From UHGV virus genome UHGV-0349101: 27,771 nt of DNA; one strand, 5' to 3'. The position numbers and the translations under genes are program-made. Below, piece after piece: positions 8,427 through 9,560 of this stretch. Below the pieces are notes generated by a model. The model was given only the letters and a program-made list of their open reading frames with translations, made no database searches and was not told the origin of the DNA. How positions within the stretch are numbered: the first letter of the stretch is position 1; every line of letters begins with the position of its first letter. This DNA is from a virus.

Positions 8427-8630
8427 GAGTATAGCCGCCAGCCATGAGTGTTGTATTAAAACAAGGATGTCTATATATGGGATAGCGAGAGTATGAATAT
8501 CAGTTATTTTGAGAGTTAACTGATTGTGAAATTAGTTTTTTTCACAAACGAGTGGGGTTACTATGATGAGTGTTCTAATGCATAGGGAACACCTAATTTT
8601 TTCAATGAATTCAAATTGATAGGATCAAAA

Positions 8631-9560
8631 ATGGCACAACAGAGAACTACCTCCCTCAGATCCATACCTTTAGACTTAGATGTTAAGCAAGAGGCTGTCA
8701 TTAACGGTATAGAAATGGGGGTACTCGATAACGGAATTCCGTACCTTACTCAGAATGGGTTGGCAAATGTTTGTGGTGTTCAGCGTTTGCGAATCAAGGA
8801 AATTACCGATGAGTGGGCTCAATCTGTTGAGAACGGTATTTTCAAAAAAGGAAGAATGACTTTTATTGGTACATATCTTCTTAATGAAGGTTTTACAGAT
8901 GAAAAACTTTATATACCAATAATTCGAAATGGTGTTGAGTACCATGCTTATCCAGATGTTGTATGCATGGCTATACTTGAATACTATGCCTTTGAAGCAA
9001 AACAAGCAGAAAGTGAGACTGCAATTAGATCTTACAGAGAGCTTGCTAAAAAAGGCCTCAAGACATTTATATACGAGGCGCTAAAATATCAACCGGAGGA
9101 CCCGTGGAGGCATTACCATGACAGAGTATCTTTATTAAAAGATAAGGGAACCATACCTGATGGGTATTTCATTATATTTAATGAAATTGCAGGTATGATG
9201 GTAGATCTCATCAATGCTGGATTAGCGATTAATCAGCATACCGTACCTGATGGCAGTGTTGGTTCTTGCTGGGCGCGTCACTGGAAAGCAAAGGGGTTAG
9301 CAACAGAATTTGGAGAAAGAGTAGACTGTGAGCATTATTACCCTGAAGATTTTCTTCAGGCAAGTTCCAATCCTCAGATCATTAATGCCTATCCTGATTC
9401 TGCATTGTCAGAGTTTCGTAGATGGTTTAAGCATGAATATTTAACCACAAAGTTCCCACCGTATATTCTTAAAAAATCAAACGTGCTTCCTGGTGGTACA
9501 GAAGATGCTAATCGTCTGATAGAAGCTTTCAAAAAATCAGAGCTAGAAAATAAACCATAA
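8631..9560 (+). CDS. Hypothetical protein (about 309 aa), AT-rich nin-region cargo
   Basis: Long AT-rich ORF; ATG at 8631 (MAQQRTT) preferred over the track start at 8616. No family recognised. Confidence 0.6.
   Translation: MAQQRTTSLRSIPLDLDVKQEAVINGIEMGVLDNGIPYLTQNGLANVCGVQRLRIKEITDEWAQSVENGIFKKGRMTFIGTYLLNEGFTDEKLYIPIIRNGVEYHAYPDVVCMAILEYYAFEAKQAESETAIRSYRELAKKGLKTFIYEALKYQPEDPWRHYHDRVSLLKDKGTIPDGYFIIFNEIAGMMVDLINAGLAINQHTVPDGSVGSCWARHWKAKGLATEFGERVDCEHYYPEDFLQASSNPQIINAYPDSALSEFRRWFKHEYLTTKFPPYILKKSNVLPGGTEDANRLIEAFKKSELENKP

What the first reader, a model, noticed from the sequence alone, without database searches (positions are those of the whole stretch)
8524..9560. Unrecognised AT-rich gene with a dyad-symmetric site upstream
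The ORF 8631-9560 is long, AT-rich and unlike any nin-region protein I know. An inverted repeat TTGTGAAA-(8 bp)-TTTCACAA at 8524-8547 lies about 85 bp upstream of its ATG, consistent with regulator binding and independent control. Its position beside other cargo makes it a candidate accessory or anti-phage function.
Basis: partly seen in the sequence, partly recalled or inferred. Interest (0 to 1): 0.45.

Follow-up and report, generated by a model that had tools for sequence, protein, structure and literature searches.

The report
BstA anti-phage gene with self-immunity repeats
The "unrecognised" AT-rich gene is a full-length member of the known BstA family of prophage abortive-infection defence proteins; the DNA site most likely to matter is a conserved pair of direct repeats 57 bp apart around the start codon (probably its self-immunity "aba" element), not the flagged dyad.

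Summary
The ORF 8631-9560, its low GC and the perfect dyad TTGTGAAA-N8-TTTCACAA at 8524-8547 are all real. The gene is not unknown: it is a full-length BstA abortive-infection protein (PHROG E 1.8e-136, PADLOC E 3.6e-121, about 40% identical over 99% of its length to the tested BstA of Salmonella phage BTP1). It sits in a 1.16-kb cargo module (8415-9573) at the start of the nin region of a DLP12-like E. coli prophage, not in the usual slot downstream of cI.

The dyad is absent from every relative, including 91-92% identical ones. It occurs once in the window and is only marginally above chance (P about 0.07), though it overlaps the -35 of the best promoter candidate.

What is conserved is a direct repeat (GGGAACACCT at 8585, GAGAACTACCT at 8642) exactly 57 bp apart across the start codon. 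The same 56-57-bp repeat architecture appears in 38 of 57 de-duplicated BstA loci (z about 7). It matches the mapped BTP1 aba element (terminal CCCGCC repeats 56 bp apart). I infer it is the cognate aba self-immunity element.

Verdict: a new member of a known family, with a modestly new family-wide observation about aba.

The parts
8631..9560 (+). bstA homologue, 309 aa: N-terminal putative DNA-binding (KilA-N-like) domain of about 150 residues, plus a BstA_C domain
   Evidence: PHROG phrog_6287 'BstA abortive infection system' E 1.8e-136, full length. PADLOC BstA E 3.6e-121. 40% identity over 99% of length to BTP1 BstA, E 1e-64. 39 invariant columns shared with BTP1 and CL707 BstA. Homologues carry PF26567 BstA_C. 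AlphaFold model pLDDT 85.
8585..8596 (+). Copy 1 of the conserved direct repeat (GGGAACACCTAA), non-coding; proposed 5' terminal repeat of the cognate aba element
   Evidence: G.GAACA.C is invariant in a 4-way DNA alignment, while sequence further upstream is unalignable. 1.53 bits per position in 12 relatives, against 0.38 bits for the 30 nt upstream. The in-frame stop TAG 8583-8585 shows it is untranslated.
8642..8654 (+). Copy 2 of the direct repeat (GAGAACTACCTCC), within codons 4-8; proposed 3' terminal repeat of aba
   Evidence: It starts exactly 57 bp after copy 1 in all 12 close relatives, although the ATG lies 28, 46 or 49 nt after copy 1. Arg5 is AGA in 9 of 9 relatives, against 35% AGA at other conserved Arg columns.
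8584..8654 (+). Proposed aba (anti-BstA) self-immunity DNA element spanning both repeats, the SD and the start codon
   Evidence: By analogy with the mapped 63-bp BTP1 aba: -29 to +34, terminal CCCGCC repeats 56 bp apart, point mutations in either repeat abolish function (PMC8585504). Offset 57 is the outlier in 9 close loci (z 5.4) and in 78-79 diverse loci (z 7.0-7.1; controls z 1.1-3.3).
8539..8567 (+). Best sigma-70 promoter candidate for bstA: TTTTCA-17-TATGAT (inferred transcription start near 8574)
   Evidence: Consensus scan, 9 of 12 matches. A -10-like hexamer, TAT(G/T/C)AT, lies 23-24 nt upstream of the start of copy 1 in four different upstream contexts of the clade at or above 91% identity, and similar hexamers lie at -19 to -23 in others. 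No expression data.
8524..8547 (.). Window-specific; function unknown.
   Evidence: Present. Absent from all relatives. Single copy. P(at least 1) = 0.07. Not terminator-like.
8570..8575 (.). GTGTTC, a 6-bp inverted partner of GAACAC in copy 1 (8587-8592). The Klebsiella-type relatives have a longer version, TAGGGTGT-N15-ACACCCTA.
   Evidence: Read from sequence. Weak in the window and not universal.
8415..9573 (+). The BstA cargo module (promoter region + aba + gene) inserted between a truncated Rha/Ant fragment and the orf33-ninB leader
   Evidence: Phage Turner shares 7900-8414 and 9574-9700 at about 95% identity but carries three unrelated small ORFs in between. The segment 8427-8584 is found only in the 109 E. 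coli genomes that carry this gene copy.

Best explanation
The ORF encodes a BstA-family abortive-infection protein carried as a self-contained cargo module (8415-9573) at the start of the nin region of a DLP12-like lambdoid prophage of E. coli.

Proposed mechanism, by homology with the tested BstA proteins of BTP1, K. pneumoniae and E. coli NCTC10963:
1. The protein is made in the lysogen, here probably from its own promoter at 8539-8567, because the PR operon is repressed.
2. When an unrelated phage infects, BstA goes to the replicating phage DNA and blocks DNA replication. The infected cell dies without releasing progeny.
3. When the resident prophage itself is induced, a short DNA element that straddles the bstA start codon (aba) neutralises BstA as its copy number rises. 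The prophage is therefore spared.

I propose that aba here is the roughly 70-bp segment 8584-8654, bounded by two copies of a GRGAWC(N)ACCT motif 57 bp apart. I also propose that these repeats are the clade-specific recognition sites that make the immunity cognate.

Shown: family membership by sequence; conservation of the repeat pair and its spacing; the module boundaries.

Inferred: defence activity, aba function, promoter use, and BstA binding to the repeats.

The flagged dyad is a local, non-conserved feature. At most it modulates this copy's promoter.
For: Family membership:
- Full-length matches to BstA models.
- 40% identity over 99% of length to BTP1 BstA.
- 39 invariant residues shared with the BTP1 and CL707 proteins.
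- 1250 homologues, those listed carrying PF26567 BstA_C.

Published function: defence, abortive infection, block of DNA replication and the 63-bp aba are shown experimentally in PMC8585504.

Repeat pair:
- It sits at offset 57 in all 12 distinct close relatives, while the position of the ATG varies.
- Offset statistics: z 5.4 and z 7.0-7.1 in 78-79 diverse loci, against 1.1-3.3 in control regions. 38 of 57 de-duplicated loci peak at 56 or 57.
- The repeat in one alphaproteobacterial locus, L044 (GCCCGCCACCC), nearly equals BTP1 repeat 1 (GCCCGCCACAC).
- Loci at or below 47% identity to the window (BTP1 itself is 40%) mostly use 56 bp; closer ones use 57.
- The CL707 locus, which carries the exact primer site used to clone the bstA-Ec locus, has ATCCCTRCA twice, 57 bp apart.
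- Codon AGA is fixed inside copy 2.
- Homology between relatives begins at copy 1.

Promoter: a -10-like hexamer is conserved in position.
Against: - There is no experiment on this protein or element.
- The window's two copies are the least alike in its clade: 9 of 10 matches only if a 1-nt indel is allowed, 6 of 10 ungapped. In BTP1, single substitutions in a repeat abolish aba, so this aba could be weakened or could work differently.
- Copy 2 lies in coding sequence, so part of its conservation is protein-level.
- The relatives are phylogenetically related, so the z-scores overstate independence.
- An in-gene control region also peaks weakly at 57 (z 3.25).
- No intrinsic terminator was found after the gene, unlike BTP1 bstA.
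- The nin-region location differs from the usual cI-downstream position.
Confidence: 0.8

Rival explanations
1. The dyad 8524-8547 is an operator for a host or phage regulator that gives the gene conditional, independent control.
For: Perfect 8-bp arms, with the right arm overlapping the -35 candidate TTTTCA. A second perfect inverted repeat abuts it, and two such repeats in 204 nt has P = 0.02 in shuffles. A gene in the nin region needs its own promoter in a lysogen. L084 (86% identity) has a different 8-N8-8 dyad at a similar distance, -86.
Against: It is absent from all relatives, including seven loci at 91-92% identity, whose upstream DNA is unrelated beyond about -50. There is only one copy in 27.8 kb. 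P(at least 1) = 0.07, and 8-bp inverted repeats occur at 1.2 per kb. TGTGA/TCACA half-sites are 12 bp apart, not the 6 bp of CRP sites (own knowledge). BTP1 bstA is reported as highly expressed throughout lysogeny.
Confidence: 0.15
2. The 57-bp repeat pair is not (or not only) a self-immunity element. It could be an autoregulatory operator or translational control site through which BstA represses its own synthesis.
For: The repeats bracket the 5' UTR, the SD and the start codon. BstA has a putative DNA-binding domain. Some relatives add an inverted third copy over the promoter region.
Against: In BTP1 the equivalent 63 bp is necessary and sufficient for immunity. It works in trans from a promoterless high-copy plasmid and is DNA-based. 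The two roles are not mutually exclusive.
Confidence: 0.25
3. The gene is an inert passenger: a BstA homologue whose defence activity or aba has decayed after transfer to the nin region.
For: The repeat pair is degenerate, with a 1-nt indel. The location is non-canonical. Truncated or IS-interrupted copies exist in some E. coli (P0039; H77 and H78).
Against: The ORF is intact and full length and keeps every family-invariant residue. It is at least 99.8% identical in about 104-110 complete genomes from diverse hosts. Relatives at 91% identity occupy the same ninB-proximal slot in other lambdoid phages, which argues for a working module.
Confidence: 0.1

Closest known systems
BstA-BTP1 / aba of Salmonella phage BTP1 (Owen et al. 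2021, PMC8585504)
   Same: The same two-domain protein family: about 40% identity, full length, shared invariant residues. It is a prophage-borne, single-gene system. A pair of direct repeats lies 56-57 bp apart, with one copy upstream of the SD and one in the first codons.
   Different: The repeat sequence differs (GRGAWCACCT against CCCGCC). Spacing is 57 rather than 56 bp. The gene is in the nin region between a Rha/Ant fragment and ninB rather than downstream of cI, so it cannot share the repressor's promoter. No obvious intrinsic terminator follows it. It is untested experimentally.
BstA-Ec (E. coli NCTC10963; CL707-type immunity-region locus)
   Same: An E. coli prophage BstA. The CL707 locus carries an ATCCCTRCA pair 57 bp apart across the ATG, and the paper showed locus-level cognate immunity for bstA-Ec.
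   Different: Only 39% identical (CL707 protein) to the window protein. It lies downstream of cI with the Timm terminator. Its aba has not been fine-mapped.
Lambda RexAB and other prophage abortive-infection morons
   Same: Cargo expressed in the lysogen that aborts infection by other phages.
   Different: Unrelated proteins and mechanism (a membrane ion channel). No DNA-based self-immunity element is known for them.
KilA-N / APSES / Bro-N DNA-binding domains
   Same: The N-terminal half gives weak fold matches to the Mbp1 APSES domain and to KilA-N, Bro and antirepressor proteins, as reported for BstA-BTP1.

Membership tests
BstA abortive-infection family | Full-length sequence homology to characterised BstA proteins | tested here: met
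   phrog_6287 E 1.8e-136, residues 5-308. PADLOC BstA E 3.6e-121. tblastn to BTP1 st313-td/BstA: 40% identity, 99% coverage, E 1e-64. 39 invariant columns.
BstA abortive-infection family | [quoted passage not shown] | tested here: inconclusive
BstA abortive-infection family | Prophage association | tested here: met
   It is embedded in a lambdoid prophage: cI, cro, O, P, ren, nin genes, Q, lysis and terminase.
BstA abortive-infection family | Location immediately downstream of the prophage repressor (frequent, not obligatory) | tested here: not met
   The gene lies about 5.7 kb from cI, between ybcK/Rha-fragment and ninB. Morganella relatives at 69% identity are downstream of an S24 repressor. 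Relatives at 91% identity are also ninB-proximal. The paper reports the cI position for 'many', not all, homologues.
BstA abortive-infection family | Cognate aba DNA element overlapping the start codon, with terminal direct repeats | tested here: met
   Sequence architecture only. The repeats at 8585 and 8642 are 57 bp apart, conserved in spacing across relatives and family-wide. The window pair is imperfect. Function was not tested.
BstA abortive-infection family | Confers phage resistance by abortive infection and blocks phage DNA replication; aba relieves it | not testable with these tools
   This requires plaque, survival and Southern assays as in PMC8585504.

The most novel reading that the evidence does not exclude
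The 56-57-bp-spaced direct-repeat pair is the universal core of aba across the whole BstA family. Its variable 5' half and shared CACC-type core form a specificity code read by the BstA N-terminal DNA-binding domain. If so, cognate aba elements, and therefore which BstA prophages can bypass each other, could be predicted from sequence alone. The fixed head-to-tail spacing hints at an iteron-like or origin-decoy mechanism for both self-immunity and the block of replication. A nin-region BstA sub-clade with its own promoter would also show that the module is portable, independent of the repressor operon.
Probability: 0.4. Interest if true: 0.6.

Novelty: new member of a known kind. Interest (0 to 1): 0.4.

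Why it matters
For annotation, a "hypothetical protein" present in about 2% of complete E. coli genomes (104 of 5,426) can be named as a BstA defence gene. This prophage then carries at least two defence cargos, and possibly a third.

For the BstA field, the mechanism of aba is an open question stated by its discoverers. A conserved repeat pair with fixed spacing but clade-specific sequence gives concrete, testable predictions for where each aba lies, what BstA recognises, and how cognate specificity is encoded. It also shows that the module works as a portable unit outside the cI operon.

Tried and rejected
- Pfam and NCBIfam scans of the protein and of its two halves found nothing, because the local Pfam copy lacks PF26567.
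- Sequence and profile searches against the PDB found no relative.
- The afdb50 fold library was unavailable.
- Megablast against phage genomes matched only the conserved ninB leader at 9574-9700, not the gene.
- Within-E. coli comparison was uninformative because the gene is clonal, at least 99.8% identical.
- I looked for the upstream segment 8427-8584 in other contexts. It occurs only with this gene copy.
- The dyad is not an intrinsic terminator: the stem is not GC-rich, there is no T tail, and the scan does not call it.
- The dyad is not a CRP site: the half-site spacing is 12 bp, not 6 (own knowledge).
- The dyad is not a structured RNA: z = -1.7.
- An unbiased 10-mer repeat search did not pick out the window's own repeat pair, because of its 1-nt indel. 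It was recognised only through relatives.
- A literature search for later work on aba or the BstA mechanism found only citing papers.

Full report
**1. Observation**

The window carries an ORF from ATG 8631 to TAA 9560 (309 codons) with an AGGA Shine-Dalgarno at 8622-8625. The ORF listing extends it to an in-frame TTG at 8616. GC is 0.36-0.40 across the gene, against about 0.50 in neighbouring phage genes.

The dyad TTGTGAAA-N8-TTTCACAA is at 8524-8547, exactly as described. Statistically it is weak:
- Perfect inverted repeats with arms of at least 8 nt and a gap of at most 20 nt occur 34 times in the window (1.2 per kb).
- Shuffles of the 204-nt intergenic region give P(at least 1) = 0.07. 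Counting the abutting second repeat at 8499-8524, P(at least 2) = 0.02.
- The two hairpins fold no better than shuffles (z = -1.7).
- The dyad pattern occurs once in the window, even with three mismatches allowed.

**2. Identity of the gene**

PHROGs assigns the protein to phrog_6287, "BstA abortive infection system, replication inhibitor" (E 1.8e-136, residues 5-308 of 309). PADLOC assigns it to BstA (E 3.6e-121).

tblastn against phage genomes finds the experimentally studied BstA (st313-td) of Salmonella phage BTP1 at 40% identity over 99% of the query (E 1e-64). The closest phage copy is only 50% identical. An alignment with 27 homologues plus the BTP1 and CL707 proteins is full length, with 39 invariant columns.

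The large protein search found 1250 homologues at E of 1e-10 or better. All but one of the 120 listed carry PF26567 (BstA_C), and some sources name them "BstA-like C-terminal domain-containing protein". The local Pfam and NCBIfam copies lack a model, which explains the empty scans. No relative has a solved structure.

**3. What is known about the family**

All of the following is from Owen et al. 2021, PMC8585504.
- BstA-BTP1 is highly expressed in the lysogen. It co-localises with infecting phage DNA, prevents phage DNA replication, and protects the population by abortive infection.
- Homologues from K. pneumoniae and E. coli NCTC10963, only about 40-48% identical, also defend.
- The encoding prophage escapes through aba. 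This is a 63-bp DNA element covering 29 bp upstream and the first 34 bp of bstA.
- aba acts as DNA and works in trans at high copy. It is destroyed by single substitutions in either of its terminal CCCGCC direct repeats.
- Each BstA has a cognate aba. Only the BTP1 element was mapped.
- Many homologues lie directly downstream of the prophage repressor.

**4. Context in the window**

An identical copy in E. coli PK12 is annotated in this order: cI-type S24 repressor, cro-like, YdaT, O, P, ren, emrE, ylcJ, ybcK (large serine recombinase), P22AR C-terminal fragment, "BstA C-terminal domain-containing protein", a 33-aa ORF, ybcN/ninB, ninE, ybcO, rusA, ylcG, Q, a minus-strand gene pair, then lysis genes and terminase. 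This is a DLP12-like lambdoid prophage. The window's own ORFs agree.

The gene copy is essentially clonal in E. coli. It is at least 99.8% identical in the 104 of 5,426 complete genomes that carry the whole region, and the next E. coli relatives are about 67% identical.

Phage Turner shares 7900-8414 and 9574-9700 at about 95% identity but has three unrelated small ORFs in between. The BstA module is therefore 8415-9573. The segment 8427-8584 is never found apart from this gene.

So this BstA is not in the canonical cI-downstream slot. That slot holds a DUF7946/DUF7947 protein (1271-2134, minus strand). Morganella relatives at 69% identity do lie downstream of an S24 repressor. Two different 91% relatives again lie just upstream of NinB. 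This sub-clade therefore recurrently occupies the start of the nin region.

**5. The dyad does not travel with the gene**

I collected upstream DNA from relatives at 86% identity (L084), 91-92% (L093, L094, L098, L099, L101, L102, L117), about 75% (L004, L005, L085, L086) and 69% (L088-L090, L103).
- None has the dyad.
- Beyond about 50 nt upstream of the ATG, their sequences are unrelated to the window and often to each other.
- L084 has a different 8-N8-8 dyad at -86, which may be coincidence.

The window dyad does overlap the -35 hexamer of the best promoter candidate, TTTTCA-17-TATGAT at 8539-8567. A -10-like hexamer, TAT(G/T/C)AT, sits 23-24 nt upstream of the start of the first repeat copy in four different upstream contexts of the clade at or above 91% identity. 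Similar hexamers occur at -19 to -23 in several others. A dedicated promoter directly upstream of the conserved element is therefore plausible, and a local operator role for the dyad cannot be excluded. Comparison gives it no support.

**6. What is conserved: a direct-repeat pair 57 bp apart**

In every close relative, a motif GRGAWC(N)ACC(C)T occurs once upstream of the SD and once in the first codons. In the window these are GGGAACACCT from 8585 and GAGAACTACCT from 8642.
- The start-to-start distance is exactly 57 bp in all 12 distinct sequences. The ATG, however, lies 28, 46 or 49 nt after copy 1.
- Information content is 1.53 and 1.32 bits per position in the two blocks, 0.92 in the spacer, and 0.38 in the 30 nt upstream of copy 1. 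Homology between loci therefore begins at copy 1.
- Copy 1 is untranslated in the window, because an in-frame TAG lies at 8583-8585.
- Inside copy 2, the conserved Arg is AGA in 9 of 9 relatives. AGA makes up 35% of codons at the seven other conserved Arg columns, none of which is uniform. This indicates constraint at the nucleotide level.

An unbiased scan over offsets 30-120 gives these results:
- In 9 loci, offset 57 has z = 5.4.
- In 78-79 diverse loci from alpha-, beta- and gammaproteobacteria and others, offset 57 has z = 7.0-7.1 and offset 56 has z = 2.6. About 30 loci peak at 57 and about 7 at 56.
- Control regions give z = 1.1 to 3.3 at offset 57. The in-gene control has a weak peak at 57, partly from codon periodicity.
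- After de-duplication to 57 representatives, 38 still have their best repeat at 56 or 57.

Copy 2 consistently starts 21-32 nt before the conserved LDL motif. The repeat sequences differ between clades but share a CACC-type core:
- AACTCCGGCCACC in many alphaproteobacteria.
- GCCCGCCACCC in L044, nearly identical to BTP1 repeat 1, GCCCGCCACAC.
- ATCCCTRCA in CL707.
- GRGAWCACCCT in the window's clade.

Loci at or below 47% identity to the window, like BTP1 itself, mostly use 56 bp; closer ones use 57. The CL707 locus contains the exact forward-primer site used to clone the bstA-Ec locus. This ties the architecture to a second locus with demonstrated cognate immunity.

Neither the main text nor the supplements of the paper describe repeats outside BTP1. 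I found no later paper on aba in the searchable library.

**7. Interpretation**

The best-supported reading is that 8584-8654 is the cognate aba of this BstA. The flagged dyad is a copy-specific feature of the promoter region.

Caveats:
- The window's two copies match 9 of 10 only if a 1-nt indel is allowed (6 of 10 ungapped). They are the least alike in the clade, so this aba might be weakened.
- The relatives are not independent samples.
- Nothing here was tested experimentally.
- No intrinsic terminator follows the gene. Immediately downstream begins the conserved orf33-ninB leader, with its own promoter-like site and the tandem repeat annotated in phage 82 as a possible regulator-binding site.

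How the repeats act is inference. Two head-to-tail sites at fixed spacing resemble iterons. Together with BstA's putative DNA-binding domain and its replication-blocking activity, this suggests that BstA binds them, and that replicating copies of the element titrate or inactivate it.

**8. Verdict**

Novelty of the gene: a new member of a known kind. The family-wide repeat pair at 56-57 bp and the ninB-proximal sub-clade are modest new observations that make the aba mechanism more directly testable.

Noticed in passing
window 11582-12796 (-) and 12799-13974 (-): A low-GC, two-gene pair between Q and the holin. It matches NCBIfam equivalogs DS1_2 (E 2.7e-112) and DS1_1, 'nucleoid-associated anti-phage protein' (E 2.1e-135). 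This is a second defence cargo in the same prophage. In strain PK12 the DS1_1 gene is split into two ORFs.
   Followed up: partly
window 1271-2134 (-): A 287-aa protein with DUF7946 + DUF7947 (phrog_5147) lies directly downstream of the cI-type repressor (2201-2950, minus strand). That is the slot where rexAB or bstA usually sit, so it is a candidate for a further lysogen-expressed cargo gene.
   Followed up: partly
window 5828-8426: DLP12-type nin cargo: an EmrE/QacE-like SMR transporter (5828-6214), the YbcK large serine recombinase (6471-7997), and a 105-aa fragment holding only the C-terminal domain of a Rha/P22-antirepressor protein (8109-8426). The same block occurs in the free-living phage Turner. 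Whether YbcK mediates exchange of the adjacent cargo slot is unknown.
   Followed up: partly
window 9575-9606: A tandem 14-mer, TTTTACATAATCAT/TTTGCCATAATCAT, overlaps a promoter-like site (TTGATT-17-CATAAT with TG). It corresponds to the 'possible regulator-binding site' and -10 annotated in phage 82 upstream of orf33-ninB, and is conserved in many lambdoid phages.
   Followed up: partly
window 3953-3962 (-), 9200-9209 (-), 15769-15778 (+), 23400-23409 (-): The post hoc pattern GRGAWCWNCC (the copy-2 motif) occurs 5 times in the window against 1.0 expected (0 of 100 shuffles reach 5). One copy is inside the replication gene O and one is inside bstA itself. The pattern was designed after seeing the data, so its significance is uncertain.
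   Followed up: no
window 8499-8524: A second perfect inverted repeat, ATCAGTTA-N10-TAACTGAT, abuts the reported dyad. It is likewise absent from relatives.
   Followed up: partly
loci L004-L083, region +300 to +570 from the LDL anchor: The in-gene control region also shows a weak excess of direct repeats at offset 57 (z 3.25; about 4.5 of 79 loci). Codon periodicity explains only part of it.
   Followed up: no
L093, L094, L098, L102 (about -65 to -35 from the ATG); L088-L090: In Klebsiella-type relatives, copy 1 is the right arm of an inverted repeat, TAGGGTGT-N15-ACACCCTA. This amounts to a third, inverted copy of the motif over the putative promoter. Morganella loci have AGGGTGTT further upstream. 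The window has only GTGTTC (8570-8575). It may be an autoregulatory site.
   Followed up: no
window 3256-3801 (+): A YdaT-toxin-domain protein sits in the position usually held by cII, downstream of the cro-like gene.
   Followed up: no
alphaproteobacterial homologues, e.g. P0045, P0054, P0077: Their annotated N-terminal extensions of about 35 aa run through both repeat copies, giving a peptide-level duplication (SPAT...SPAT, 19 residues apart). Either the start codons are mis-called, or the DNA repeat is also translated in those clades.
   Followed up: no
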